DNA of 49,764 bases from Blastocystis sp. subtype 4 (GCF_000743755.1 NW_014569507.1:1-49764), one strand, 5' to 3'. Shown: positions 5,354-45,740, counted from the stretch's first letter. The notes: generated by a model not told the origin, from the sequence alone. Program-made: numbers and translations.

Positions 5354-8300
5354 TCAAACTGCATTTATCGTACAATCATCACATAACACTTCACTAGTAT
5401 CAACTTGTTTCTTACATCCACCATTGCTACACATCACATCAATATCTCTATCCTACGTCTTCTCTTCCTTCTTCTTTCTCTTCTTCTTTGATGGATTCTT
5501 AACAGTTGATGGATCACGATTTCGATTCTTCTCCTTTTTACTACCGAATACGTACAAATGATACATTTCTGAAGAATAAAACTACTATTTATGGAATGCC
5601 AAAAATCTTACATGTTTCTGGAATCGATACAGAAGTACACATAACATGCTTTCACACACAATACACACACATTCCCACAATACTCCCAGAGGTGCTCCAT
5701 ACACATAAGAATTCTTCAAAGATCGTCGAATAACCGCGGTTATCCCTTCTACAAACAACTCTGCTCCAGCTGCACTCACTACGAGGAGATATTGTGTCTG
5801 CGTATTCACTGGAACGAACCAACCAATTATCGTGCAGATTATGGCAATTCCAATTAATGTATAGAAAACTGATCTATTTGTGAATTCCAGAAATAGGGCC
5901 TACATTAGCAAATATTTCCCTTTCAGAACAATAATGTCCGTGATGAGTCGAATCAACCAGACTGAGGCCAGGAGCAACACATTTCCACAGAAGATATGAA
6001 TGGCAATCTTCGATCCACAACGGAGAACCAAATGACTTAGCAACAACGATACAACAATACAACCGAATTCGATACAACATCTCCATAATTGATTTGATTT
6101 CTGGAATTCCTCAAAGCTGATTGAAATTACAACATAGTAGAGAATGAAGGAGAAAAATGAGGCATTGAAGGAAAGGACAGAATAGTACAGATTTCGGTAC
6201 CCAACCGAACTGATATAAATACCCACGATAATTGGAATAATAAGGAATAAGACAGAAGATTCGTTAATTTGACTCAAAATGGTTAGTGGCTGTAAGGAAT
6301 AAGCTTGAATGACCATTTCTGAGTCAATACATCCACAGTAGTAATTCTGGAACGAATCACGGATCAATCCTGATGGAATCTGAATGGTGTAACTGTCGCG
6401 AAATTCGAATGAGGAACCCAGAGGGAACCGAATCTGTTTATTATCCAGAATCAGATCCTTTTTGGGAATCTACAAATAATGGAAGATTTCTGTCATTACA
6501 ATATAATGAGCTGAAATACGAGGATGAGATACAAGAATGGATTGAGCAGTCTGGAAATCTGAAATCTGTACCTGCTTGTTGAATTCCAGAATTAGGATAG
6601 GTTTTATAACTTTGTCAAAGGAGACAGCAACAGCTCTCCAGGAGACAATAATTGTCTGTTTTTCCACCACAATGGATTCAGTTAAATCTCCCGCCAATTC
6701 ATTTCCTGCCAGATCTGTAATCAGTTGATGAGGAACTCGAACTGATACACGACCATTGTGAATGGCTCTTGCAAGTAGAGAAAAACTAGGAATAATGAGA
6801 ATGAGTATCAGCTTACCGATCACTGGCCACCATCGCATCTTCCACCTCACCATTATCAACCTCAATACAATCTCCAGAACTCCCAACTGAACAAACCATA
6901 CTCATCAAACGTTCTTGAGTCACTAGACGTACATTGTCAATCAGTGACAATTGTGGGTTGTACAGAAACAGAATTGACTCTGATAGCTCAAATGTGAACC
7001 AAATCCTATCCCCGTTGGTACGCTCTTCATGAGGCGATGATGCGAGCAATGAAGGTCGCATGGAATCTAATGATCAAGACTCAAGCATTTGACATACCAT
7101 GGGTGATACAGAAGGAGAGAGGAAGTGGATTTGGCAAATGATTCTTCGAACTAATAAATGTGTCTATTTCTGACATTCCAAAAATAGTCCCTACTTTTGA
7201 GAATATCCACACAGACCTGTCCTTGAACAGTAGCCTTAATTGTGAAGTCATAGTAATATGTCTCAATTCCCGTGGTATGATTATAGGCAGTATGAACTTC
7301 AGGATCCAATGATACCAAAAAGCCGTTTTTGACGACAAAGTCTTCCAGAGCAATATGAGTGAGAGGATGTGTAGAATGGAGCTGACATTCAATAGTGCTG
7401 TTGGAAGTGAGAGGAAGAAGTGGACTTGTGATTGCTAGAGAGAAGTCAGATGCATCAATTGTAAGAGAGAGTGGAGTACTCCGAACATTTGTAGCACCAG
7501 CTACATCAGCAGCAATACGTTCAGGAGCCACACAACGCATCGATAGAGCCGGATCTAAGAATGAATGGAATCTCTCTCCAGTACTCATTAACTGATTTGG
7601 TATCATATCAAACTGAAACACACGACTTGTAAGCATGAATCCATTCATCACAAGACAATTCTCGCATATGATCTCACTAATCTATGGATCAATCTCAGTT
7701 CGATTGCTCACATGTACATCAATCACATCACGTGTGAATACACCCACGATTCTGTGTGTGAACATGTAGAGACCACCTGGACTCAAATCCCATAATACCA
7801 AACTAGGTCGATTTCGTTCATATCCAAAATCAACTCTTATTTCGTCATTGTTTCTTGCGCCAGCAACCGAACATACCGAATATGCACTAATCTGAATAGT
7901 TTTCCATCCACTGCTATCTCCATCCAAATACAGAACGCACTCTGTGGAAAATGAATTTCCAGAATTCATAATGATTTGGGTTATTTGGAGTCCCATAAGT
8001 AGAAACAAACCTGAATCACACGCTTTCAACACTTGGTCGAAGTGAACATGAGCCGTGATGTATCGATCAATCAAGCCACTCTGACTGGAATCCTCCTCCC
8101 ACGATACTGGAGGCTGTTTGATTTGTATGAAGGGAGTTTCATCGACATAAATCTGGACATTTATTTGATTATCCACAAATCGAGATAATTCTGTCACTAC
8201 ACCCAAATACGTTTCATTTCCATCAGATCCAATCATGAATGCGGTGACCACACAATAGATCAATGAAGGCTCTGTTGGTGATACTGAGATAAGGACTTGA

Positions 8301-11300
8301 TTGGTGTTGTGTATGGTGAGAGTCGTTGGGAGAACAGTCACGGTGGTGGTGACAGCATAGCAAGTGATATTCAAGCGATAATCATATTGAAGAGATGAAT
8401 CGAATATCCCAGAGATAAACACGTTAGGGACGAGTAGAGTCAGTATGATAGACACAGGTGAATGAAGTGTTTCATGATGTGTTGCTGTTAGAGTGAAGAG
8501 TGAGTATGTTTCTACAAGTGATGACTATGGTGGGGTACCTACGAAGAGTTACACTCAACTCTAAGTCAGTCTTCATAGTATTTCCTGCTTCATCAACAAT
8601 TGCTTCTTTGGGGACATGCAGAACTGTTGAATCTTTTCCTGATAACTGGATTCGCAAAATAAACCTGAATTTCATCCTTTTCCAAAAATATGTACATTAC
8701 ATCAAATTCCGAAAATACTTCCATTATTTGTCCTTCCCTAATTTGCACCAATTTCAGATTCTTCAAAAAGTTCGTCTTCTCGGATGCTTGGAGAATAAGA
8801 GTGATTGATGGAATGATGGAATGACTGAAGGAAGCAACCTGATGAAGAGTTGGAGATTGAACATCGTAAATGACTGATAAGGGTTCAATCTCTGGATATG
8901 GAGACCCATCTGTGATCGTATGCAGACAGTCTAAATGTGATCATGAGAGAACATAAAAAACCCTTCATTAAAGTGAAAGAGAATAAAGACTCAGACTGTG
9001 GATACAGTGTGATAAAAAAGTGTGGATTCTCTCCTGAGACTTGAATGTGTTGAATGTTTGTAGTGACAAAGCATGATTGATTCAGTGAATGAAGAGATGG
9101 CTGAAATGATAAGGTGAAAGTGAATGGATGGTTTATAATTCTCTTATTCTCTGAAGGGACTAACATCACAGAAGGTGACGTAGTATCTACTCAGTCAATT
9201 CATCATTCTATTCAAACCTCGAATCCATTTCAATTTAACATACCAACGATTATTCATGGTTCCATTCAACAATGTGACAACACCTTCCTCAATCCAAAAT
9301 TCAAAAACTCCTTCCTCATTCACATTCAAACACATGTCAACCACAGTCTGAGTACCCACACTCCCGACAACGAATTTAGCTAAGGAACACATGGAAGTGT
9401 GCACATCATCAGAATGAAGCTCTGTCACCAGACTAGGAGCTTGGAGACGACCACAAACATCATTTGTGTATACTATGTCCTCTTCATCAAATGTTGAAAC
9501 GAACGAAAACCGTGGTTCGGTTGCCACAATCTTAAATGCTTGGGATCCCAAACATGGTTGGTCTTGTTCTGAAATAGCAGCACCTCCTTTCACATAGACC
9601 CACATTGCTCCTGACTCTGCAAAACTGACATCAAATACACTATGTACAGAGGAATGCATACTCAGACTCACAGTGGCATGAATCCCGTCAGTTCTCCAGG
9701 AGAGGAGGGAAGAGGAATCCATTCCTCGCATCATTTCAGTAAAAGACACTCGAACACGATACTCAAACGGTGATTCTGTGGCCATGACTGAGATTTGAGG
9801 AAGAGGCCGTTTTGTTTCAGCATGGAGAATGATGGAAGGAAGATTCTCAATGTAGAGATTACTGGCGAGAAGAGATCCAACAGGAGGCTGTACGACAATT
9901 TCGGTGTCGTAAGGCGCAATTACCGCAACCACAAACTGAGTATTGGAAGAATAACTGGTTTCGATTGGGATCACAAGCAGACTGTTGGGGGCATTGACCC
10001 ATGAAGGGAAGAGAGAAATCACAACTCCATCACAAATCAGCTTCACTTCGTATACAACAACAGAACTCATCAACAGAACCGCTGAAGTCATGGAGCATGT
10101 GCTGGAGGTGGTAAGAGAGAGAGGAAACGAATAGGAAGTGGTGTACTGAATGATCAACTCATCCGAAGTAATGGAGTTGATTGATTTGAAAGTATGACTG
10201 AAGTCTACTCGAATCGTAGTTCTTACAAGAGATGTAGTGAGAGAAAGAATCAGACTGTTGGTGGATTCATCTTCTGTAAGAGAAACAACAGTAGAATTAG
10301 AGACAGAGAAGTCTTGAATTTTAGGAGTGATGGGAGATTCACACACAATATATACGACGATCAGCAATTCATTGACGAGTTGCTTTTGTGATAGAAACAG
10401 GCACATGTTGGGTGTACTTGGTACGACCACTTCCAATGAATCTGAAGCTACACTCACACGTCCCTCATCGTCAACAAAAGCACCAGCAGGAGCTGAAATT
10501 GTCAGTATTCCAGGGTACATAGGAGCTACATAGAATAACCATGTTGAGTCTCTCAGACAATGGAGATCGGTTAGAGTCCCATGTTTCACGACAATCATTG
10601 AATCATTTGCAGTTGACACAGGTGATGGAAATGTGAGAAGAACCTCAAATGAAGCTTGTGGTGAGGATTGAAGAATGAAAACAGGTTTAAAGATGATGGA
10701 ATCTTGATGTTTATTATCATGACAAAATTCGTACCTTTTTCTAGAATGACAGTATTACTCCGGATATTGGTATTACCACAAAGATCTTCAATCATGCCAT
10801 CACTGATCACCAATCTCACCTCTCCATCCTTCACACCATCAACAAGAAATGAATACTCCAGAGGATCATTCTCCTTCTGAAGGAGATTGGTAATTACAGC
10901 ATTGGTGGATGCTTCGAAGATACAACTTGTGAGACCAGAAATGACTTCAGTGAGTCTGAACGAACATTGAAGAGGCGATTGGATGATCTCAGTAGACTGA
11001 CAGCGAATCATCACTTGAGGCGATGTGACATCTATCAATCATGCTTCAGTCAATACATTACCATAATAGAAATGGAATTCAATGGGATCACTTGAGACTC
11101 CACTTGTGCTTGTTGCTACTCCTGCTGGGATCCCAACAATTCCTTCTCCTTCCTCCATCATATGAATGACTAAGCGAAGTATGCTCTCCTGAGAGGGAAC
11201 AACATCGATACACTCACAATTCACACATGAAATCCGTTCCTTCAATGGAATCATCGTGATTGGAGAATCATATTGAATGAGGAGAGGAATAGGATTATGA

Positions 11301-13818
11301 TTTGTGTATGGTTTTGTTAGTATCGTGGCTGTAGCAAGTGTGAGAGAGAGTGTAATTGAAAGGGTATTTGATCGAATATTGTGATAACCGTTATGGTCAG
11401 TTGTCACTGCTGCTGGAAGAGTAATGTTAATAACAGAAACAAATGGAGTCTGTGGGGATAGGTAAAGAAGAAAGGATTGAGGAGAAGACGGGTCAGAATC
11501 GGGAGTCATGGCAATCATTCCAACAACCAAACCACCTTCTATGGATAGAAGATTAGAAGTGAAATTTTGAATTGGATGAGAGAATGAGAGTGTGATTGAG
11601 AGTGGTGCTGGACAAGCGGTCATACAAGATGAAGTGAGAAATGGAATAGGTTGAGGTGTATTGTAGGAGGATACGAATGTAACAGATTCCTGGAGAGTAT
11701 TCCCACAATTGTCTGTTAGTGTTGTACCATTGAACTCTGTGGTGATTAGAAAATGGAAAAGGAGGACAATCAGTCATAGTCACTCATCACATCACAATAA
11801 TCAAGTCACTCATCACTCACCTTTCATCATAGTCACACTCCATGTCCCACAATTCATAGGATATACCAACAACCATCCCTGAGCCCCCTGATGAACGAGA
11901 GTATCCACAATCCCATTCTCCACATTCACAAATTTCCACATCTCCTCACTCTTCAGATCCACATTCACCGAAAACGAATATTCCACAAGGAATGGAGGTC
12001 TGAATCCTGTACTTGCTATAGTTACTGTCAATGGATTCCAACTATGGACAATACTAAAAACGACCGGATTATTGGAATATCCATTTTCAGCAACAATGAA
12101 TCCAGAATTTATGGTGAAAATGGTAATCTGATTGATAGGTACAGTAGCATAGAATCGATAGCGAGAACCAAGAGGATGAATATGGAACGAACAACCAGTG
12201 TCAGAAGTAACACGCCCTGTATCCATAGTATGCATCTCTCCCGTGACATTGAACTCGAAAGCTACACCTCGATACGATGAATAAAATGTTGTTTTTGGGA
12301 GTAGAATCTGAGGGATTGAGCAATCTTAGAATTTAGAAAATAATCATAGCAAATACCATAATGAACAGTTAGAACACCTGAAGCAAGATTCTGATTCAGA
12401 TATGTATCGAAAATAGTATTTGCCAAAATCTGAGCACTAATCTCTGATTGAAACTGAATCAGAGTTATGAGAAAACTATGAATGAATGAAGAGAATGATA
12501 TGAACCTGGATGATGAATCTCTTATGATGTTGGAAATATTCGCTCCTTGAACAGCAAGAACATTAGCATTGATACCTGGAATTACAGTTGTTGAGTTGAG
12601 AAGAAGAGTGATCTGACCACGTAAACATGCCTCTTGGTGTGTTGTAACCACAAATAGTGCCACTGGAAATGGAGATGAGTTGATTGCAATTTGCTGTTCT
12701 AATGATTCTTGAGAATGATTGCCACCATCATTCATTGCACAACCATATAACAGTTGGATGGATATAGAATCACTTGTATTGGAGGGAATATCAATCCAGA
12801 TCAGTACAATACTTTGATTCTGAGAGACATATACAATTGAATATGCTTTCACAGTTCCAGCAGATAAGCGAACATAATTAGGACGAAAAAATGCAACAGG
12901 AGAAGCGAATGTCAATTCACAGGAAATGAAAAACTGTTGAAACGCTGATAACTCTCTTGAGCAATGCATTTTACTTTCAAAGTCCGTTCCATTCGTTCGA
13001 TACATTGTTAACATATTTGATTTCTCATTGGGAGTATAGTTGATCGAATAGATCGTTCTTCTCTCCATCACAATCGAACATTGAGGTGCTAGCATGATTA
13101 CTTCTAACTGATAGGTATTTTCTGCATTTATCAAGATAAGTGAACATCCTGAAGCAATAAAATCTCTCGACTCCACTTGCGTTTGCGGTACTTCTCCAAA
13201 CTCAACTACAATCATAGGGTTCCCTTGTTGGGACACAAATCCAGTCTTCTTCAAAGTAACAGAAAAATAGTCTCTAGATGTAGAACCTAAAATATTAATT
13301 ATCAAATAAAAGCAAACCAAAAGAAAGAAAGGAAAGAGTGACCGGATTACTCAACGATTCTTCCAAACTGTCTATTTCTTCACAACAATCTGAGTAAACG
13401 AATTGATATTTCATCTTTACAGATGATATAAATAAACAAGCATTCTGCATACTCCTCAGCAGCCCGATTGAAGTATTCTTCCCTGAGGGAGTAACAAAAA
13501 CATGTTCACAATTAAAAGGACATTTCAAATCTTCATTATGGACTTGGAGAATGGAACTTGATGAGTCACTCATCAAATGTCCATCCAGTACGATTCCATT
13601 TGTAGAGTCTATCAATGAAAAACGAAAACTAACACCAGACAAGCAAAGGATAACAGTAACAAGAACGACAGGAAAAGTGCTCGCACTTTCCTATTCGTCA
13701 TGTTTTCTTCTATCCTCATCAATACACTTTGAACAAGATTTGAACTGTATTCGGATTCACAATAGAAGAAACACGACAAGAACGGGAATAGCAGGATATT
13801 CGCACAGGATTGAGCCAT
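5354..13818 (-). CDS. Very large multi-exon membrane protein with tandem bacterial Ig-like (Big_12-like) beta-sandwich repeats and C-terminal TM segments; 5' end uncertain, may be more than one gene
   Basis: Same-strand ORFs are separated by intron-sized gaps. Recurrent ~100-aa units end in LITDLAGNEL, AIVDEAGNTM, AFVDDEGRVS, MIEDLCGNTN, VTTDHNGYHN and AMNDGGNHS. Hydrophobic helices lie at about 5600-6300. The spliced 3' end reaches TGA at 5356-5354, followed by TGTTTGAT. Not every internal junction was checked. Confidence 0.65.
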
Positions 13819-21554: not shown

Positions 21555-22542
21555 TCACTCTAGTTCCATCTCCTTTCCTAATGACTTTCTATATGTCTCA
21601 AACACTTCATATACTTCGTTGTATCGATCACTTGCTTTGCTCCGAAGAGTCATTAACATCTCATCTTTCACAGGTTTTCCTCCTGGTTTCACCAACGATA
21701 AGACCTTTCCATCCTCTCCCAGAACAAAAGTTACCGAGTCTTCAATAATATCCTCTTCAAACACATCAGGGTCCATTACTTCAAAATCTTCAAATAGACC
21801 GAATGAAATACTAATAGGAGTATTCAGAATTTGAAGAGAACGAGGATGATCTAGATTACGAAGAGAGATATAAGTCATACCATAATCGAACACTAATTCT
21901 TCTTCTTTCAGAGATACAGTTGGAATACGAAGGTTCATTAAGGCAGCCAACAAAGCCAACGAACATGCATCAAAGACGCTTCCTTCATAGTCGATACAGA
22001 TCAAATCGGCGTGGGCAACAATAACTCGATTAACTTCCTTTGCATATAAGTCATGAGCATCAATGACATATCTATGAATGATTCGCAGTTCCTAGAATTA
22101 CTTTTCAAAGATACGAGTGAGTGTTTGTGAATAAAAGTAACATTGACTTGGAGGTTTTCCCAAACGCATGTTTGGACTACAAAGAGGTGTTAAATGGACA
22201 TTTATATCTACTCAATAAGGAATTCTCTCAGAACCAACCAAGTTTTCCCGAAGTCTCAGAGGCTTCTAGAGAAGGGAGAAATTCCAATTTGATTCCACAT
22301 ATAATGCCTGTATTTCCTAAACGAACAAAACTAGAACCATCGGCCGTTCCGATATGACCTAATTCCTTAACTAAAGACTAAAGCATCCACCTTCTGATAT
22401 GACAATACCTCTTCCAGTGTCCATATTCCTTCCATCAGGTCGAATGCTTTGTTCAAGGAATCTACGTCATGATGATAGAAATGGTCCAGTACTTCCCATA
22501 ATAGGCTTTGGGAGCAATTCTCTTAAATAATTCGACGTTCAT
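21555..22542 (-). CDS. RRP43: Exosome complex RNase PH-like subunit RRP43 (EXOSC8)
   Basis: [49 protein letters not shown] and [29 protein letters not shown]. Confidence 0.85.
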
Positions 22543-22613
22543 TGAGTGGTAAAGGAGATATTGAGAACAAACAATGAACCGCGGGAAACAACACAGAATG
22601 AGAATCTGTATCA

Positions 22614-22621
22614 AACAAACA
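22614..22621 (-). terminator. GU-rich polyadenylation element TGTTTGTT
   Basis: Perfect match 2 nt after the transporter TAA, so predicted cleavage falls after the T of the stop codon. Confidence 0.75.
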
Positions 22622-22623
22622 CT

Positions 22624-25600
22624 TTACACATATCTAATCCATACATAAATAGTACTGATTAGTAACGTCACGATCATACAAGGAAAACCAAATTTGAAGA
22701 ACATCCCAAATGTGATCGGATACCCTTTAGATGTACTAATACCAGCTGTAACCAAATTAGCTCCAGCACCGACCAGTGTTCCATTACCACCAAAACAAGC
22801 ACCAAATGCAAGTGCCCATGCAAGGGTAGTTATATCAAGATTGAGAGAAGGTTCATTCGCCAGAATCTTGACAACGGGAATCATAGTAGCAATAAAGGCA
22901 ATGTTATCCAGTACAGAGGATACAAGGCCTGCTACCCATAACAACAACATATGTGCAAGAAGGGACTGATACTTGGTAGGTGCCTTCATAATTAGAACAG
23001 CAACCGCATTACCAATTGCTCGAATAACACCCATCTGACTCACTCCCTGAATCATAATGAACAACCCAGCAAAGAAGACTAGTGTCTCCCACTCCAGCAA
23101 TTCAAAAGTTGCATGGAGATCGTCATTGGTACCAAGAAGCAGACACGCAAAAGCACCCGCAATTGCAATGAATGCAGTATCGATACCATGAACAGAATGT
23201 AAAAAGAAGAGGATAATTACGAATAACAACACAGTACCACACTTCAATAAGAGTGGCTTGTTCTTAATAGGATACTTTTGACGTAACATGGGATCCACAT
23301 TACATTTCGATTTCATCAATGTATCCTTAAAATAGAAAAACACAACAATGTACACAAATACCATACACAATAAAGCACATGGACTCATGTGATAGATAAA
23401 GTCAACAAAACCAATGTGATCACTCAACATATTCCCAATAATGATATTTGGTGGATCTCCAATTTGAGTTGCAGTTCCACCAATGTTGGAATAGATCACC
23501 TCAGGCAACAAAAGTGGAATGGGAGAAATCTTCATGATATCTGCCAATTCAATGGTAACAGGAGCAATCAATAGCATGGTAGTTACATTATCAAGGAAAG
23601 CGGAGATAATCCCCGTTAACAAACACAATGAAATGCTTAGTACCAACACATTACCATTACTAAATGTGAACATCGATACTGCTAAATATTCAAAGATCCC
23701 CGTGGTTGATAACATTTGAATCATTACCATCATACCAAAGAGAAGACACAACGTACTGCTATCCATCCAACTGACTACTGTAGACAAGGAAGGAGCATCG
23801 GTCACAAATGAAACAACAAGAAGAGTAAAGAATGCTCCAATGAATGCAACAATAGCTCGATTCACCACTTCGAGAAGAAGGAGGAGATAGATCACGATCA
23901 GAGTAATTGAACCAAGAAGGATTCGATAACGACCTATGGAACCCATTGGCTGAACATGCATCATAAAGCCAACCGCTTGAACTGAATTGGTTCGAACTCT
24001 CATCTTCAGTGTGATATTCTGAAAGTGAGAAAGACCTAATATACTCACAGTGTTCTGAATTTTATCAAGAACGTCAAACTCTTGAAGACTCTCCACTTCT
24101 GTTACAGAATCACTCTCCATCCTAATTTCTTCTCCATAAATCACATCATCAGGACTGGTATGGTCAACTAATGCGTACATCAATGTGTATGGAGTATCAC
24201 TCCGTTGGATAGTAGCACGAACTTCATATAATCCTTGTCGTTTACCTGGGATACTAGAATGAACATGAATGAATCACCAATACCTTAAATACAGTGGATT
24301 CGCAGAGGAGACTGTTTTAATTCCTCCTGGAATGCTTAACTCTGAATCAATCATTGTGGTTGAGTGTAAACCATCACTCTAAGAATGACTCTCCATTCTT
24401 ACACTTACATCAACAGGAAAATGATGTAAACAGAGCAACAACAGCACTAACAAACAACTAACAAAGGTCACACATCCAATTATAATATCCTTTGGAGTGA
24501 GTTTACTTTCACGTAATTTGGAATCATCTCTCTCTAATTCTTCAATGCTTGGTTCTTCCTGTAACTTCTCTGTCATCATTGTCACATCATGTTCATGAAT
24601 AACCCGTTCACGATTCCTGAGTTGATGCTGTGTACGTTGCATTGTATTGCTTGGTACCATCACAACAATTGTTTCTTGTTCTGTTCGTGTACAACATCCT
24701 TTGGTAGTAATTACTGTACGTGTTTGATAAGGCCTTTCAGAATAAGGATCCGGAGGAGGAAGCATCAGACATCGTGTTACAAAAACATCCATCAACTAGA
24801 TTCAATCCAATCAATAGAAATCACTTTTAACAACAAGCGAGGAGTATTTACCTTCCTTGCTGCTTTACCAAACCAAGTCTGAGAGAACATGATAGAGAAT
24901 GCATGACCCATCTCTCGAAGTCTTTGTGTGATAAAAAGATTCAACACATACTCATCAACAGAATTCTGTTCACCAGCACCCAAAACAAACAAGAAATAAC
25001 GAATACTCACATCATTCTCATTCACCATTACTGGTTGTCTCATACGAACAACAGCAAACAATGGTGAAGTTAGACAAGGAAGACAAGTCACATACACTTT
25101 ACAACCCTCTTTTGAGCCACTCTCGACATAGAGATGACGATCTTCGAATAGGTGATAAATCTCGCTACGTTGGGCTGAAGTGATACCGTATCGCAACTCA
25201 TGTTCATTTAAAACCAATGTCAACAAATCGTAAAGAGAATCACAGTGAACATCAAGTAATACAACTCCTTGTTCTAGACCACGACGAAGATTACTAAACG
25301 CTTTTCGTTAAGACAACGTACAACAAATAATGATTGGATATTGATAATGAGGCCACATTACGTACATCATCTGATTCTAGTTCTTGAACACCATCAACAT
25401 AACGGCCAGTTCCAATCCACCCAGAATCACTCTTTTCCCGCTCATTAACATCCACTACCAATCCTCCAAAAGATCCTGAGACAGAGAAGGAACTGAGACG
25501 AAGAAGAGATTCTGTGTTGTGTCTTGAAAGAGATGAAACTGTTTCTTCGAGAGAATCTTCGTGTAGATCAGTGATGACAGCAATGTAATCACCTTCATGA

Positions 25601-25998
25601 GTATCTATGATATCCACACGCATCTCAAAGGAAGATCCATCACTCCTCACACCAGTAACGATGTTGTCAATTTCCAGTTTCAAGGGAAGTCCGCCACCGA
25701 TCGTTTCCAAAGGAGTGAGCTTAAAAAGCGAACGAATGGCATCTGTTCCCAACGCCTGAACAAAGCCAGGATCAACAAGATCTAATACATTGGAACCTAG
25801 CAGGTCATCCTTCTCTTTCAGTAGAAAGATTGTCTACATGAGTGAATACAAACCTGTACATACAGCAGTTTTCTTTGTGTAGTTCTTGATACATCCATTT
25901 TGATCATAACGAATCTTCGCTTTATTAGTCTACAGATCATCACTAGCGGCAGTAGTGAATACGTCACCATTTCGATCTGCGGAAGGTAGATCGCCCAT
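22624..25998 (-). CDS. OCA2/P-protein-type (ArsB/CitMHS, IT superfamily) transporter fused to an N-terminal PAS domain and an SLC4/Band-3-like cytoplasmic domain
   Basis: Transporter motifs SAFLDNVTT, SNIGGTATQIGDPPNIII, EWETLVFFAGLF, SSVLDNIAFIATMIPV and WALAFGACFGGNGTLVGAGAN. All upstream exons splice in frame through 28-33 nt introns, giving about 1050 aa. Confidence 0.85.
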
Positions 25999-26460
25999 AT
26001 TCGAAAAGCTAGAAATCATCAACTTCCTGAGTCAAATACCTGGAAAAAACACGAGGAAGGTTTTCAATGACTCCAACCTCCTGAGTTTCCTCGACAAGAC
26101 TAATTGACAAGACGTCAACAAATCTACTGGTCCGAAACTTTTGGTTTATCGTCCCCTTTAGGAACACTCACAAGCTCAATACTCATTTTGGAGATTCTGT
26201 TCCAATCTAACAATCTTCCACGGGAGATTCTTCCATTTGGCAGAGCAATTGCTTTTATTCATTGATCTAAGTTCCACTTGCTAATTTATCGAGCTTACTG
26301 GAGATAGAATAACCCAATTGAAATAGATGATTGTATCTCTGAAAGAAAGGGGATGGCTATCATTCAGCCATTCACCATTGATACTACACCATTCATCCCA
26401 CTTTCATTGTTATGGTGGGATAAAAGTAATATCCAATTCCTTTCTTGCACATTTACTCTC

Positions 26461-28673
26461 ATGGATCCAGAATTGAAGCGAAGGCTTGCTGATAGAGCCT
26501 ACCAATCTGTTTTCAGTTACTTAAAAGAGGTATACTGTGACGATGCGGAGTATGGACCCTCTCGATCCTTTTAGAGATTAGAAACTCAGGAAACTTCATT
26601 TCAATGTCAAAACGGACATCCTTTATTCTTTGTTTGGCTGATCTATCCAATGTGTTATTTGGAAGTGAAAATGAGATGGTGATTTCTAATAATTCTATTC
26701 TTTCTACGTATTCGAAGGAAGGGTATCAGTTTCTCGGAAAGGAGCAAGGGTCCAAGAAAGTTCCTTCTATGTAATAAAATTGGTTTCAAATGAGAATATA
26801 GGGTGATTTCACAAAATGTTTCTATTATCCACTCAACAGTTCCATCATTAACGGAACTGGTTTTGGCAGTGATGGGAGCTTATCCGGAAAAGAAGTTTCA
26901 TCTGTTCCCACTCCTTCTTCAAGATTATCGCAAATTATTCATTCGACTCGGTATTCAAGGCTTCCCTACCAATTCCTGCAAGCGGTTTATGGATACCTTC
27001 TTTACAGAAAGTGCTAAAGTGGACCCCAAAGCTCCTGTGAAGCCAATTCAATTCCCTCCTACAATTCATTCGTTCTATACTCAATTCCTTGCAATAAATC
27101 CTCCTAAAGAACATGATTATTTGGAAGTGACTCCTTATGAATACTACATTATTCGCTTCTTAACTTGCATCGCTTCCCTCCAAGTGGAACCAATAGCAAA
27201 GACAGATTCCTCTCTTCAATTGTTACATAGAAATGAAAAGCATACCATTCTAGCAGTTCAGCTCTTCTTACACTATCTGTATTACCTCATCAATCCTCAA
27301 CACCCAACCAAACCATCAATCACAAACAGTCAGCGTCCTTCCCTTCAGAGATCTGATCTATTCTTCCTTTCTGCCATTTCAGAACTGTGGTTAAGTCGTG
27401 ATGATACCATTCCTGATGATTTGGGATTCCTCATCCGAGAGTGTTCTCATCAATCTCTGCCTGTATTTATCTACAATATACTCTTTCATAGTTAGATATT
27501 AAGTCGATTGTCACCATGCATGATCCATTGTCTTCACGAATTGATTCTCTTCATACACAAGAATTCGCCTCAGACATCTGATGGAGTTACTGTTCATTTG
27601 AATGCTATCGAGTCTTCTCTCTTCTTCTTCTTTGCTAAGCAATTTGCTGCTTATCGTACAGACTCTGCTATGCGACCCGGTTCTGTCAAATTGAGTGATG
27701 TGGGTATTTCTTGGAGCGTTTCACTTAGATCGTGCGATGTTGGTGTGACTTCTTGCTACCATGGAAATGCACATCACCGGAAGGTTCATGTTCTTCCTTC
27801 ATTCCATTCATAACTCGTCATTATCTGTTCTATCGTGCATTGTTAGTTCTACTGATACGAAGATTAAGTGTGATCTCTCTTCCGGTTTCAGAACTACGTA
27901 TAATTGTGAATCTAATTCTGGATACATACTCATCTGCTATTTTGAAAGTATTGGCTCGTTGTGATCAATCGTTAACGGAAATGCAGAAAACCTCAGGTAT
28001 GTCATATGACACTGTATTGCTTGATGGAATGAATGTAAGACTCTTGTAGGATGTAGTTATCATATTAGATAGCGAAATGGAGACAACCAATTTCCATGCA
28101 TTTCTCCGGAAAGGACATGACTGACTGTTTCTTGATGAAACTGGCTGTGTGTTATTCCAGCTCACCATTATTACCAGAAGATGTGGAGAAATCAAAAGTG
28201 AAGCAATTGGGCTTAATTCTGGAATACGACGAAGCATCATTCCTATCATTCTATTGGAATCTGCGTCAGCAGATGAAACCACAAAATGCTTCTGATTTGG
28301 GAATTTGGTCTGGTTTGATCAATCCTATTGTATGCATTAGGGAATGAGTTTTGTGTAGAGAGACTTCTTATTCAGGAACGTAGCAACACAGAATCATCGA
28401 TCCAAGGCTAATTTGTATGATCCTCTCAATTCGTTTGAATTCCCGTGTTTCACTCGTTGGTTGATTCGATTCACCGTATATGTGAATACTCGTCTGTACT
28501 GTCTGGTTCATGGTGAGAATGAGAACATCAACTGGGAGACCTATTTCGATAACCCTGACAATCAGTACATCAATCTTCGTTTCCTAGGAGATGCCCGAAA
28601 TCTGATGTGGCTTCTTGTGTTCTGGTGGATGTGTAAAGTGATCTATTGGATTGGAAAGAATCTCTTCTTTTAG
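26461..28673 (+). CDS. SMPD4 / mit_SMPDase-like tail-anchored protein
   Basis: TPYEYYIIRF, ELWL, WCDFLLPW and the C-terminal DPLNSFEFPCFTR...YINLRFLGDARNL followed by a terminal TM segment. Confidence 0.65.
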
Positions 28674-28735
28674 TCTTGTGTTTGATTGAATCCTAATCAT
28701 TGAACAAACACACTATAAACCAAATCGTGAAAAAG

Positions 28736-30223
28736 TTACATCTGGATATCATAATGTCCAGCTTCCACCTGGGATTGTACGCCTGATATCATTCCATAAT
28801 CGCCAGGCACACGTTGCGCTGTTGTCTTTCCAATATTCAATCCTGAGATAGAACTGTCTACTTGCACGAAAGCCAAACGAGCCACCAATGACGACTCTAT
28901 CAATCAATCACTCATTACCACTCCTCACTCGGCGCCAACGCATCTGCCTGTAAAAACACAGGTCCCTTTAGACTCGGGGTATCCTCCTTACGCAGATTTC
29001 CTACAACCCAGTTCAACACCTTCTCCTCCTGATTGAACACGACATGTCCTGAAGAGGCCGTGATATTGGCTCCTGTAGTCTGTGGAGGTAATACAATTGT
29101 CACCACAATATCTGAAGCCACCAGTGGATTTCCTTCGACCTGCTTCTTTCCATGTGGCCTGGCTCCCAACATTACATCCATCTGACCCCAGTAGCCATTC
29201 TCCCCCTTCACCCAGGATAGTGAAGGACGACAATAGAAGGCAGGAGTGAACTCCTTCACGCTACGGACATTGTACTTCATGATCTGACTATCAATTCTTC
29301 CATTTGTGGACTACATCAAACACACCATCCAGAGGGATGAATTCGAGGGTTTTACTGGCATTGAAGCGAGAACGATTCACAATCTTATGAAGGAAAATGC
29401 CCTGAATGTTGTCAAGACCAGTCAAAGTAGCGGCGATTTCTGGATTTCCAGAAAGACGGCTCTGAACACGTAGAATACCATTTGCACTCACATCCACAGT
29501 CTTTCCTTTTCTAGAAGTGAGAGATAAGAATGAGACAAACGAAGTGACAGTAGCATTTACTCTTTCAATCACAAAGAAGCGAATCTCATTTCGAACATAC
29601 TTGATGTCAGGTTGTCTCCAGCTCACATTATTATTACTGGAACCAGGGAGCCATGTGTTCTCATCTGAGAAACCCTAGAGATCATCCAGACCATCATCTT
29701 CCTACAGCGACCTTCGTGACAAAGTTGCTAACTTTGTTGAGCATCGTTGGAATTTGAATAACAGAAGACATGATCGAAGGTTCTGTGATCACTGGAACAC
29801 CAAAATCAGCAACTTCATCAAGAAGCTATGAATGACTCAAAACGAAGGTTCCAACTTGGTACACGAGAGAGAAGTTTCCCCGAATCTTTACTTCGTTCAC
29901 AACACCAATGTATGCCTTAAACAGTGTCACAATCTTTCCAATAAACTCAATTGCAGACATAGGTGACACTTCACTCTTGATGACAGCAATAAAGAAGATA
30001 TTTCCTTCTTTCACGACCACCAAAGCACAATTGGCACCTTCAAGGACAGGAGGAACATCCTATAGTATAAACGCATCTACATCTGGATTCCAACATTGCT
30101 AGTAACACAGGTTGCTAAAGCAACATAGAAAGGTTCCAACGCGCTCCGTTCAATAACCCCCTTCCAGTGCTTTTCAATAATGACCTGTTTGTCCTCTCCG
30201 AGGATAAATAGAGAATCAATCAT
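28736..30223 (-). CDS. AP3M: AP-3 complex mu subunit
   Basis: MIDSLFIL...IEKHWK, VPPVL, SEVSPMSAIEF, NFSLVYQLLDE..DFGVP, SWRQPDIKYVRNE, LSGNP and FIPLDGVF. Confidence 0.88.
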
Positions 30224-43218: not shown

Positions 43219-45371
43219 TTAGTCGCTGCTTGAATCTGAAGAGGAAGACTCAACCTTCTTAGGAGCAGGCTTAGGAACAGGCTTCTCATCTTCTGAGGAC
43301 GAGGAGTCAGATGAAGATGATTCGATTTTCTTAGGAGCAGGCTTGGGCACAGGCTTCTCATCTTCTGATGAGGATGAATCAGAAGAGGAAGATTCAACCT
43401 TAGGAGCAGGTTTAGGAGCGGGCTTCTCATCTTCTGAAGACGAGGAATCAGATGAAGACACTTCCTTCTTCACAGGCACAGGAGCAGGCTTTTCATCCTC
43501 AGAAGAATCAGATGAGGAGGAAGACACCACCTTCTTGACTGGCTTCTTCACCACAGGTTCCACATCGGAATCCGAATCTGAAGACTCTACCTTCTTTACA
43601 GGCTTCTTCACGTCGGAATCTGAATCCGAATCCGAATCCACCTTCTTTGAAGGCTTCTCATCAGAATCAGCAGGTTCAGGAGATTCATCACCACGCTGTT
43701 CTTTGGCGTTGTCCAACAACAGATCGAAATCAACCTGAGCAAGTTGGATGGACTTAATCTACATGATTAATGGAATGACAAAAAACCGACAGAATTCGCC
43801 AACTGGTCGATGTTCACCTTCTCAGGTAGATGCTTCAAGAAAGCATACAGCTCATTTGCCGACATATCAGTCACCTTATCAGAGTAACTACCAATGACCA
43901 AAATACCCTTAAAAAATACTATTTCAAAATACCACAGGAAATCTTCACCAAACCGAATCCACCTTCCAACAACAGAATATCCCACAATCTCTTTGCCTTT
44001 TCAAAGTTCACACACCGAGTAAACAGTGAGCACATCCAGTCTCGGAGGATCACAGACGAATCAATCTTGGACTCAGAGAAATAGCTGGCTACCTCACTCA
44101 CCTCTTCACCAAGTGCCGACTCGAAGGCAGTACAGTAATCCTTGAATTCCATCTTCCGATCTGGATCCATCACTACGACCATGTACTCTTGGAAGAGATT
44201 TACTGTTGAAGTAAAAGCACTCTCCTGATCTTGGAACTGGAGCAACATGGCAGCCACATAGTTCAAACCATCAAAGTAACCAATGTCAGGACGATATGCA
44301 ACCCACGTCTCGAGCAGCTCACGTAGAGACTAGGAATGATAAGGTTGAATCGATAAAACCTTCTCGAAGTCAGGAGTGTGGAAGGAAGCTTCATTAGGAT
44401 ACACTTCTACAAATCATGAGAAATTGACCATTGATACCCTTAACAGCGTTAGGAATCTCCAGTATCGTCTTTTCATTACCTTCAGTAGGAGCATCAGGAT
44501 TCTGTCCATCATCATCCACCTCCAATCTAACCTTCTCAAACTTTTCACGAAGACCCTTTCCATTCTTCATTGTCACACGATACAGCTTTGCTGCAATACG
44601 GGTTTCCATACCAATCATAGTACTCCAACTCTATACCTCAAATCTATTTCAATTCATAACCATGATACGTGTGTAAGGAAGCATTCCTTCATAGCAAACC
44701 TTCTTAGCTAATGCACCATCACGCTTGTACTTCCAGTTAGGAACCACCTTCTTTGAGAATTCAATATTGTCATTCTCTCGTTTTTTAATACGACGCTGTT
44801 CCAGCCAACTATCGATCAATTCTCATACATGGAAATACCCTTGGAAACCTCCTGACTTCTTTGGCTTCTCGTCCTCTTCAGATTCCTCTTCCTCTTCAGA
44901 GGATTCCTTCTTGGAAGTTTTCTTAGACTTCTCCTCGGATTCGGAATCAGAATCAGTTTCAGACACATTCTTCTTAGCCTTCTTAGGCTTGCTGGCAGTC
45001 TTCTTAGCAGCCTTGGAGTCCGAAGAGTCAGAGTCTGAAGAAGATTCATCTTTCTTTGTAGGCTTCTTATCCGATTCAGAGTCAGAAGAGTCTGATGATG
45101 TTTCAGCCTTCTTTGCAGCAGGGGCCTTTTTGTCTGAATCGCTGTCGGAAGAAGAGTCGTCAGACTTATTGTTACTGGCAGCGGCAACCTTAGGAGGTTC
45201 CGAGTCAGATGAATCCGATGAGGTTTCTACCTTCTTAGCGGCAGGAGCTGGCTTCACGTCAGAATCGCTATCAGATGAAGAACTCAGATCCTTCTTGGAA
45301 GTAGCAATAGGTTTCTTATCAACCTCTGAGTCAGAGCTAGATGTTGTTGTAGAATCAGTATCAGAAGGCAT
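43219..45371 (-). CDS. TBC (Rab-GAP fold) protein, TBC1D12/14-like, flanked by Ser/Asp/Lys-rich regions; catalytic fingers absent
   Basis: LRELLETWVAYRPDIGYFDGLNYVAAMLL and DWMCSLFTRCVNFEKAKRLWDILLLEG. Joined by short introns to both low-complexity ends. Confidence 0.85.
43222..43640 (-). repeat. Coding tandem repeat of about 69-72 nt encoding (V/I)ESSSSDSSSSEDEKP(A/V)PKPAPKK
   Basis: Several near-identical units containing ggcttctcatcttctga / ggagcaggctt, more degenerate toward 43640. Confidence 0.85.
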
Positions 45372-45740
45372 TTGTCTACTAATGTGGTTACAACAAATTC
45401 ATAAACTAATAAATAACTCTCCTACAAGGTATAAAACAAAGTACAGTTGAACAATCTGGACTAAATACGATGATCATGACACAACAGCTATTGGGACATA
45501 GCATCCTATATGATCCCTATTTCCCTTTTATTTTTCGTTAAATTGACTAATTTTGGGACACATCTTTATTATATGTTTTCTTTCTAATCCGCGTTCAATT
45601 ACTCCTTTAAATTATTGCAAAGGTATATACATACAATATAACACTCTCTCTTAAAATGAGAAGATATTATATATGAGACACAAACAATTCGACACCACTG
45701 TGCACTAAGAGAAGTTAATATGTTGAAAACAAACAGCAGA

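What the first reader, a model, noticed from the sequence alone, without database searches (positions are those of the whole stretch)
22624..25998. Three-way fusion: PAS sensor + SLC4/Band-3 cytoplasmic domain + OCA2/P-protein transporter
Seen: one spliced frame carries three parts. (a) About 25560-25930: AKIRYDQNGCIKNYTKKTATIF...DDLLGSNVLDLVDP...VTGVRSDGSSFEMRVDI...YIAVITDL, a PAS/PAC pattern. (b) About 24740-25430: WIGTGRY...VASLSISNHYLFNLRRGLEQGVVLLD...PLFAVVRMRQPV...IRYFLFVLG...REMGHAFSIMFSQTWF...FVTRCLMLPP, matching the order of motifs in the SLC4 anion-exchanger N-terminal domain. (c) A single TM segment, a lumenal domain and an OCA2-type core. Known: the Band-3 cytoplasmic domain normally sits on the unrelated SLC4 membrane fold, and OCA2 is an organellar anion/pH regulator with neither domain. 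Inference: a chimeric anion transporter gated by ligand, redox or oxygen. I do not know this architecture from the literature.
Basis: partly seen in the sequence, partly recalled or inferred. Interest (0 to 1): 0.85.

Follow-up and report, generated by a model that had tools for sequence, protein, structure and literature searches.

The report
Band-3 domain grafted onto OCA2 transporter
A gut protist (Blastocystis) and a few other single-celled eukaryotes carry one spliced gene that joins the cytoplasmic domain of Band 3-type bicarbonate transporters to an unrelated transporter of the albinism-protein (OCA2) family, with a likely PAS domain in front, which shows this domain is a portable module that probably regulates more than one kind of membrane transporter.

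Summary
The fusion is real. One spliced contig from a public run (X5) spans 22666-26168 with ten introns removed, giving a 1083-aa protein. The Band_3_cyto and CitMHS domains pass Pfam cut-offs. The organism is Blastocystis subtype 4; a public model is labelled 'arsenical pump'. The Band 3 + OCA2-type architecture recurs in another Blastocystis, Triparma columacea and unnamed metagenome proteins (5 of 74 long hits), forming one branch with modest support (80/80). PAS is likely but below every curated cut-off (Atlas 0.94-0.96; all Foldseek rows shown are PAS domains, best E 0.008); FixL heme and LOV residues are missing, so oxygen or flavin gating is unsupported. Five OCA2 conductance residues are kept; ArsB's two proton-coupling aspartates are not. 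Best reading: an OCA2-like anion transporter regulated by a borrowed SLC4 cytoplasmic domain. Six paper searches found no description; this scan had not noted it before.

The parts
22624..26186 (-). Whole gene: 11 exons, 10 introns, 1083 aa (exons 26186-26128, 26099-26040, 26008-25963, 25929-25864, 25833-25342, 25301-24952, 24921-24825, 24795-24409, 24378-24284, 24253-24049, 24018-22624)
   Evidence: Introns from spliced contig of X5; open frame, one stop; same start as public models P0262/P0263. ATG and stop lie just outside the contig span.
25561..25929 (-). PAS-like domain (aa 56-168), split by intron 25863-25834; no FixL heme or LOV residues
   Evidence: Atlas PAS clusters 0.94-0.96; Foldseek rows all PAS, best E 7.6e-3 on a pLDDT-47 model; FixL E 0.15-0.32, NCBIfam FixL E 0.041; 11.1 bits vs best of 1000 shuffles 7.0 against a profile of relatives; no Pfam PAS hit
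24748..25467 (-). SLC4/Band 3 cytoplasmic domain (aa about 200-406)
   Evidence: Pfam PF07565 above cut-off; profile of fusions hits solved SLC4 chains at E 1e-29 to 1e-18; model of relative P0005 matches BTR1 Z 9.2, EIIA-Ntr Z 8.4, NDCBE Z 7.5, Band 3 Z 7.1
25302..25341 (-). 40-nt intron with U12-like signals (ATATCC 5' end, CTTAAC near the end, AT-AA termini) inside the Band 3 domain
   Evidence: One contig of one run; puts the domain in register with SLC4 and other Blastocystis without an insertion; U12 consensus recalled; Blastocystis U12 introns of about 40 nt are in print
24496..24747 (-). Cytosolic linker with predicted long helix (aa 407-490)
   Evidence: 27% identical to the Blastoise protein; helix 457-492 in the P0005 model
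24418..24495 (-). First transmembrane helix (aa 491-516)
   Evidence: Hydropathy peak 3.0; conserved position in all fusions
23941..24417 (-). Lumenal/extracellular beta-sandwich, GOLD-like as in OCA2 (aa 517-645)
   Evidence: P0005 model 558-688 matches p24 GOLD domain Z 7.2, a middling score; OCA2 GOLD-like domain in PMC10372470
22627..23940 (-). OCA2/P-protein-type IT-superfamily membrane core (aa 646-1083)
   Evidence: CitMHS E 2e-76; ArsB Z 41.5 for the P0005 model; V443, M446, I473, N476, N489 equivalents all kept
22614..22621 (-). TGTTTGTT polyadenylation-linked motif just after the stop codon
   Evidence: motif described for Blastocystis in PMC5608401

Best explanation
This is one spliced Blastocystis gene for an OCA2/P-protein-type transporter whose cytosolic N-terminus carries a true SLC4 (Band 3) cytoplasmic domain and, in front of it, a likely PAS domain; the protein likely moves chloride or another small anion across an internal (vacuolar/endolysosomal) membrane to set lumen pH, and the Band 3 domain would act as a pH- or partner-sensitive brake on the elevator-type core, with the PAS domain a cofactor-free interaction or small-ligand module. 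Shown: one transcript-level frame, domain content, recurrence in other eukaryotes, conserved OCA2 residues. Inferred: substrate, location, regulation, and a single origin of the fusion in or before stramenopiles.
For: Single spliced contig across all domains; neighbours have their own contigs. Band 3 and CitMHS above cut-off in the window and in P0001-P0005, P0094, P0095. Two other assemblies are 100% identical over 3651 bases. Domains conserved to the Blastoise protein P0094: Band 3 36%, core 58%. Six fusion rows form one side of a branch, 80/80, in 80% of bootstrap trees. All five residues of the OCA2 quintuple mutant that loses chloride conductance are kept (mutant described in PMC10372470 passage; OCA2 anion conductance and organelle pH in PMC4270065 abstract). 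Same layout as OCA2: cytosolic N-terminus, one helix, lumenal beta-sandwich, core. In AE2 the cytoplasmic domain interlocks the membrane domain at low pH (PMC10066210 passages).
Against: No transport, localisation or gating data. The fusions lie outside the 100/100 branch holding animal OCA2, Capsaspora and Naegleria, so chloride conductance need not carry over; OCA2's own substrate is debated (dicarboxylate symport proposed). The AE2 interlock uses a loop of the SLC4 membrane fold that this protein lacks. The window protein departs at two near-invariant core positions: DNIP to DNIA (P in 66 of 66 matched among 74 hits) and GASAN to GAGAN, which may mean altered function. No clear sorting signal: the one acidic dileucine match lies inside the PAS part. 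Branch support 80/80 is below the starred level. PAS is below all cut-offs and only 14% identical to P0094. RNA evidence is one contig from one run whose RNA status is a guess (though spliced, with a poly(A)-like end nearby).
Confidence: 0.5

Rival explanations
1. Same architecture, but the core is a Na+-coupled carboxylate or sulfate carrier (DASS/SLC13-like), possibly at the plasma membrane, taking up gut fermentation acids.
For: Core fold matches VcINDY, NaCT, NaS1, Pho90 at Z 25-30; Na_sulph_symp Pfam above cut-off; modelling paper proposes Na+/dicarboxylate symport for OCA2 itself.
Against: Sequence identity to these is 14-18% against 35-53% to OCA2-like proteins; measured OCA2 activity is a chloride-selective conductance.
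Confidence: 0.2
2. It is an ArsB/Lsi2-like H+/metalloid antiporter, as the public label 'arsenical pump membrane protein' says.
For: Best structural match is ArsB (Z 41.5; E 2e-9); database name; PED proteins have been linked to arsenic handling (PMC5100055 passage).
Against: ArsB's proton-coupling Asp112 and Asp148 (PMC13381914 passages) align to Val764 and Gly800 (alignment); NCBIfam ArsB score 80 vs cut-off 457; layout and motifs are OCA2-type.
Confidence: 0.08
3. One reading: the PAS domain binds heme or flavin and gates the transporter by oxygen or redox, fitting an anaerobic gut protist.
For: Closest PAS matches are FixL and DOS heme domains; PAS-like N-terminus recurs in P0094 and P0005.
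Against: Distal Arg220 position is Asn; only His156 and His168, both after the strand matched to FixL, and one Cys68 not shared with relatives; no His or Cys column is shared by the four PAS-like segments; FixL likeness is confined to a generic strand motif; Triparma lacks PAS.
Confidence: 0.1
4. The PAS-like part is a decayed relic or mere spacer, and the Band 3 domain serves only for folding, dimerisation or trafficking, with no gating role.
For: PAS 14% identical to P0094, half missing in model P0001, absent in Triparma; most OCA2-like proteins have neither domain (69 of 74); the AE1/AE2 domain is dispensable for transport (PMC4664831 passage).
Against: Both domains have been kept in distant Blastocystis lineages and P0005; the frame and three introns in the PAS region are intact and spliced.
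Confidence: 0.25
5. Annotation artefact: two adjacent genes (PAS+Band 3 soluble protein; OCA2-like transporter).
For: One public assembly splits the locus into 414-aa and 693-aa models at intron 24824-24796 (P0263, P0264).
Against: The contig removes that intron; intron-free linkage of Band 3 domain to the first helix in P0075/P0076 and full-length fusions in six other proteins.
Confidence: 0.03

Closest known systems
OCA2 / P protein (pink-eyed dilution; Pfam CitMHS, IT superfamily)
   Same: Cytosolic N-terminus, one helix, lumenal GOLD-like sandwich, elevator-type core; five conductance-related residues kept.
   Different: OCA2's N-terminus is disordered with dileucine signals; here it holds folded Band 3 and PAS-like domains. 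Separate branch from animal OCA2. Two motif changes in the second repeat.
SLC4 anion exchangers and Na+/HCO3- transporters (AE1/Band 3, AE2, NBCe1, NDCBE)
   Same: Cytoplasmic domain homologous over its length, E down to 1e-29, from the first strands to the segment ending in the LPP motif.
   Different: No HCO3_cotransp (PF00955) membrane domain; the attached membrane fold is IT/ArsB, not the UraA fold.
ArsB / Lsi2 metalloid antiporters
   Same: Same membrane fold (Z 41.5).
   Different: Proton-coupling Asp112/Asp148 absent; extra helix, lumenal and cytosolic domains.
FixL/DOS heme-PAS and LOV domains
   Same: PAS-type order of strands and helices; best weak matches.
   Different: No distal Arg, no His in the helical part, no LOV Cys (His/Cys positions recalled).
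PTS EIIA-Ntr regulating K+ transporters
   Same: Band 3 domain shares the EIIA fold (Z 8.4); a precedent for this fold regulating an unrelated transporter (TrkA; review passage).
   Different: EIIA is a separate bacterial protein; here the domain is of the SLC4 subtype and covalently fused.

Membership tests
OCA2/P-protein-like (PED) transporters | CitMHS core above cut-off, closest sequence relatives PED-like | tested here: met
   257.6 bits vs 31.9; named hits are P-protein/pink-eyed-dilution-like
OCA2/P-protein-like (PED) transporters | Extra helix plus lumenal beta-sandwich before the core | tested here: met
   Hydropathy; P0005 model strands 558-688, GOLD Z 7.2; modelled on the relative, not the window protein
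OCA2/P-protein-like (PED) transporters | V443, M446, I473, N476, N489 equivalents | tested here: met
   5 of 5 in the window; numbering fixed on Macaca P0065
OCA2 orthologue proper | Groups with animal OCA2 | tested here: not met
   Outside the 100/100 branch of animals, Capsaspora, Naegleria (midpoint root, 24 chosen rows)
OCA2/P-protein-like (PED) transporters | Organellar chloride conductance raising lumen pH | not testable with these tools
   Needs patch clamp and pH imaging
SLC4 cytoplasmic domain (PF07565) | Pfam Band_3_cyto above gathering score | tested here: met
   38.5 (exon) and 57.9 (P0262) vs 34.3; relatives 80-142 bits
SLC4 cytoplasmic domain (PF07565) | Alpha+beta EIIA-like fold | tested here: met
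   P0005 model 313-421 matches BTR1, EIIA-Ntr, NDCBE, Band 3 at Z 7.1-9.2, about 100 residues aligned, 35-36% identity to NDCBE/Band 3; first half of the domain was low-confidence in the model
SLC4 transporters (whole protein) | HCO3_cotransp membrane domain | tested here: not met
   No PF00955 in window pieces or P0262
PAS domain | Curated profile score | tested here: not met
   0 PAS families for the window segment; relatives hit PAS families at E 2e-5 to 2e-4, below cut-off in whole-protein scans
PAS domain | PAS fold | tested here: inconclusive
   Model pLDDT 47, built with a 10-residue intron read through; Foldseek rows all PAS but E >= 0.008, VIA Z <= 3.3; Atlas features 0.94-0.96 to PAS clusters, shared features only 107-134 of 256
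Heme-PAS (FixL type) | Proximal His on the F helix and distal Arg220 | tested here: not met
   Asn134 at Arg220; no His between residues 55 and 155; proximal His position recalled
LOV domain | Photoactive Cys motif | tested here: not met
   Only Cys68, on an early strand, not conserved; motif recalled
ArsB | Asp112 and Asp148 proton-coupling residues | tested here: not met
   Val764 and Gly800 by the alignment; residues
U12-type intron | RTATCC 5' end, branch motif close to the 3' end, about 40 nt in Blastocystis | tested here: met
   length range in PMC10639083 passage; consensus recalled; end is AA rather than the usual AC
U12-type intron | Splicing depends on the minor spliceosome | not testable with these tools
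   Needs knock-down or branch-point mapping

The most novel reading that the evidence does not exclude
The SLC4 cytoplasmic domain is a free-standing regulatory module that was grafted once, early in stramenopile history, onto an OCA2-type elevator transporter, and there, together with a PAS input domain, gates anion flux in response to pH or a metabolite: the first case of this domain controlling a membrane fold other than SLC4's, and a natural test of what the domain does by itself.
Probability: 0.35. Interest if true: 0.8.

Novelty: new variant of a known kind. Interest (0 to 1): 0.62.

Why it matters
A review of SLC4 transporters says the large cytoplasmic domain seems to come from a separate gene, that no isolated homologue had been found, and that its basic role is a key open question (PMC4664831 passages). 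Finding it on an unrelated membrane fold in several protists supports the modular origin and lets its function be tested without the SLC4 membrane domain. It also gives the poorly understood OCA2 family members with built-in folded regulatory domains, and corrects a mislabelled ('arsenical pump') and mis-spliced gene model in a very common gut protist.

Tried and rejected
Pfam found no PAS in the window segment in any form; PDB search with the 3-sequence PAS profile gave only CD4, E 0.11, rejected as chance; MotA_activ E 0.12 rejected. Complex prediction of two copies of the Blastoise Band 3 region: no answer, score 0.27 under the mark 0.32, no evidence either way. My Band 3 profile does not separate the two candidate junctions (139.3 vs 140.2 bits), so the U12-like junction rests on the contig and on register. 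Second homologue search with the fusion profile returned only P0001 and 17 fish SLC4 proteins. Representative search: 1 of the best 150 (P0114, N-terminally cut) has the Band 3 domain; only 11 of 150 are long enough to hold it and P0001/P0005 themselves are not listed, so this gives no range. Metagenome scan gave 2 loci, both identical to the window. Atlas search of the Band 3 part gave scores under 0.9, leads only. The 44-row quick tree put diatom proteins with the fusions (SH-aLRT 92, unfinished search); the careful 24-row tree did not, so I do not claim diatoms lost the domain. A third motif count and the first shuffle control failed by script error and were dropped (shuffle redone). Runs X7, X8, X10, X11 gave only short unspliced pieces. 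PMC12978542 and PMC13142308 passages had nothing on this architecture. Supplements of papers were not examined; Marron 2016 or Blastocystis genome supplements could list the protein. The origin of the fused Band 3 domain among SLC4 domains was not treed (only fish SLC4A5 sequences were on hand).

Full report
Setting. The window is a compact eukaryotic genome with introns of about 30 nt and TGTTTGTT just after stop codons. The closest named proteins are from Blastocystis, and a cluster look-up returned a Blastocystis subtype 4 model, P0262 (KNB45513.1, 'arsenical pump membrane protein'), that matches this locus letter for letter outside three splice differences.

Gene structure. Laying public contigs on 22300-26300 (4 runs) gave one 3196-nt contig in run X5 that covers 22666-26168 with no other letters and lacks ten stretches: 26127-26100, 26039-26009, 25962-25930, 25863-25834, 25341-25302, 24951-24922, 24824-24796, 24408-24379, 24283-24254, 24048-24019. 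Nine are GT-AG. DNA run X6 has no gaps. X5 is only guessed to be RNA, but the neighbouring genes are spliced in separate contigs and one has a poly(A)-like end. Removing the ten introns gives an open frame of 1083 aa from ATG 26186, and 3192 bases over the contig span, as observed. A contig is not a single molecule, and this is one run. The junction 25321-25294, also used by the public models, is not in the contig; the 40-nt skip keeps the same frame, starts ATATCC, has CTTAAC seven bases before an AA end, and removes a four-residue insertion relative to SLC4 proteins and other Blastocystis. I read it as a U12-type AT-AA intron (consensus recalled). Blastocystis has hundreds of U12 introns, median 39 nt (passages of PMC10639083, and PMC5608401). 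A low-depth contig in RNA library X9 keeps this intron, which may be DNA or retention. One public assembly splits the gene in two at 24824-24796 (P0263, P0264); the contig contradicts that.

Domains. Band_3_cyto passes the Pfam cut-off on a single exon (38.5 vs 34.3) and on P0262 (57.9). A profile of five fusions finds 12 solved SLC4 sequences at E 1e-29 to 1.5e-18. The core is CitMHS (E 2e-76). An AlphaFold model of relative P0005 (mean pLDDT 65; core mostly 80-95, Band 3 second half 58-78, PAS about 55) matches ArsB at Z 41.5, DASS carriers at Z 25-30, BTR1/EIIA/NDCBE/Band 3 at Z 7.1-9.2 over residues 313-421, and a GOLD domain at Z 7.2 over the lumenal part. No PF00955 domain is present. 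The PAS claim is weaker. Against: no Pfam PAS hit in four tries, a poor model (pLDDT 47), VIA Z at most 3.3. For: Atlas features point to PAS clusters at 0.94-0.96; all 36 Foldseek rows shown are PAS-family domains, best E 0.0076; FixL is the top sequence match in PDB and NCBIfam; P0005 and P0094 carry sub-threshold PAS hits at the same place; a profile of the relatives' segments scores the window 11.1 bits against at most 7.0 for 1000 shuffles. I put PAS at about 80%. Heme or flavin binding is unlikely: Arg220 of FixL aligns to Asn134, the only His are 156 and 168 and the only Cys is 68, none shared among four segments.

Distribution. Of 74 long relatives of the core, 5 carry the Band 3 domain (P0001-P0005; Pfam scan covered 31 of the 74, my own profile all 74). 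Cluster members add a second Blastoise paralogue (P0094) and Triparma columacea (P0095, 1389 aa, no PAS hit). P0075/P0076 (18-member cluster) are Band 3 + first-helix exons about 45% identical to the window. Diatom, choanoflagellate, green-algal and animal relatives in the set lack the domain. In a careful tree of the core (24 rows chosen by hand from 77) the six fusion rows form one side of a branch (80/80, not starred), apart from animal OCA2 (100/100). Named members are stramenopiles from distant groups (taxonomy recalled); P0002, P0004, P0005 are unnamed. One early fusion is the simplest reading, not a proven one. The searches were candidate-limited, so the range is a minimum.

How it likely works. 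The layout equals OCA2's (PMC10372470, part 1 of 6 and passages). The five residues whose joint mutation blocks OCA2 chloride conductance are all kept. OCA2 mediates a chloride-selective conductance and raises organelle pH (abstract of PMC4270065). ArsB's proton-coupling Asp112 and Asp148 (passages of PMC13381914) align to Val764 and Gly800, so the database label is not supported. In AE2 the cytoplasmic domain locks the membrane domain at low pH (passages of PMC10066210), and the related EIIA fold regulates a K+ transporter (passages of PMC4664831). I therefore favour an organellar anion pathway with a borrowed cytosolic regulator (confidence 0.5); substrate, location and gating are inferred. 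The two changes in second-repeat motifs (DNIA, GAGAN), also in P0272 but not in Blastoise, leave room for changed specificity.

Novelty. Searches for the combination (listings only) found no paper describing it; 'Blastocystis' with 'OCA2' gave 0 papers. The library lacks most subscription journals, and supplements were not read. Passages of PMC5100055 describe a broad PED-like clade without mention of Blastocystis or this domain. The architecture is visible in precomputed Pfam labels, so it is latent in databases. The SLC4 review states that no separate gene for the domain had been identified (the Parker and Boron review it cites was not read). Earlier scan notes: none on this fusion.

Verdict. 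A real, expressed, multi-lineage domain fusion; new variant of the OCA2-like family. Band 3 + OCA2 architecture about 0.95; PAS about 0.8; oxygen/heme gating about 0.1. Interest 0.62.

Noticed in passing
window 23007-23221, 23678-23774 and 24989-25025: Runs X5, X7, X8, X10, X11 hold divergent pieces (about 83-89% alike) matching the core and a Band 3 strand: likely a paralogue in this or a co-resident Blastocystis; Blastoise also has two copies.
   Followed up: no
window 25302-25341: Public gene models (P0262, P0263) use a GT-AG site inside the U12-like intron and retain two in-frame introns; such AT-AA introns may be systematically mis-annotated.
   Followed up: partly
window +42398 and -44402: Two further RTATCC starts with a branch-like motif within 55 bases: candidate U12 introns.
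   Followed up: no
window about 5900-13350, minus strand: Long multi-exon gene with beta-rich repeats, weak bacterial Ig-like hit (Big_12 E 0.0013, below cut-off) and C-terminal membrane helices: probable large surface protein.
   Followed up: no
window 21555-22540 (-), 26504-28674 (+), 28915-29500 (-): Neighbours: RNase PH-type exosome subunit, an unannotated spliced gene with no Pfam hit in two exons, and an adaptor-complex mu subunit with much deeper RNA contigs.
   Followed up: partly
P0071: Another OCA2-like protein with a different cytosolic sensor, a cyclic-nucleotide-binding domain (E 3e-12): the family seems to acquire N-terminal regulatory domains repeatedly.
   Followed up: no
window 43219-45450: Two low-complexity Ser/Asp/Lys-rich repeat ORFs on the minus strand, nucleolar-phosphoprotein-like by composition (label recalled).
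   Followed up: no
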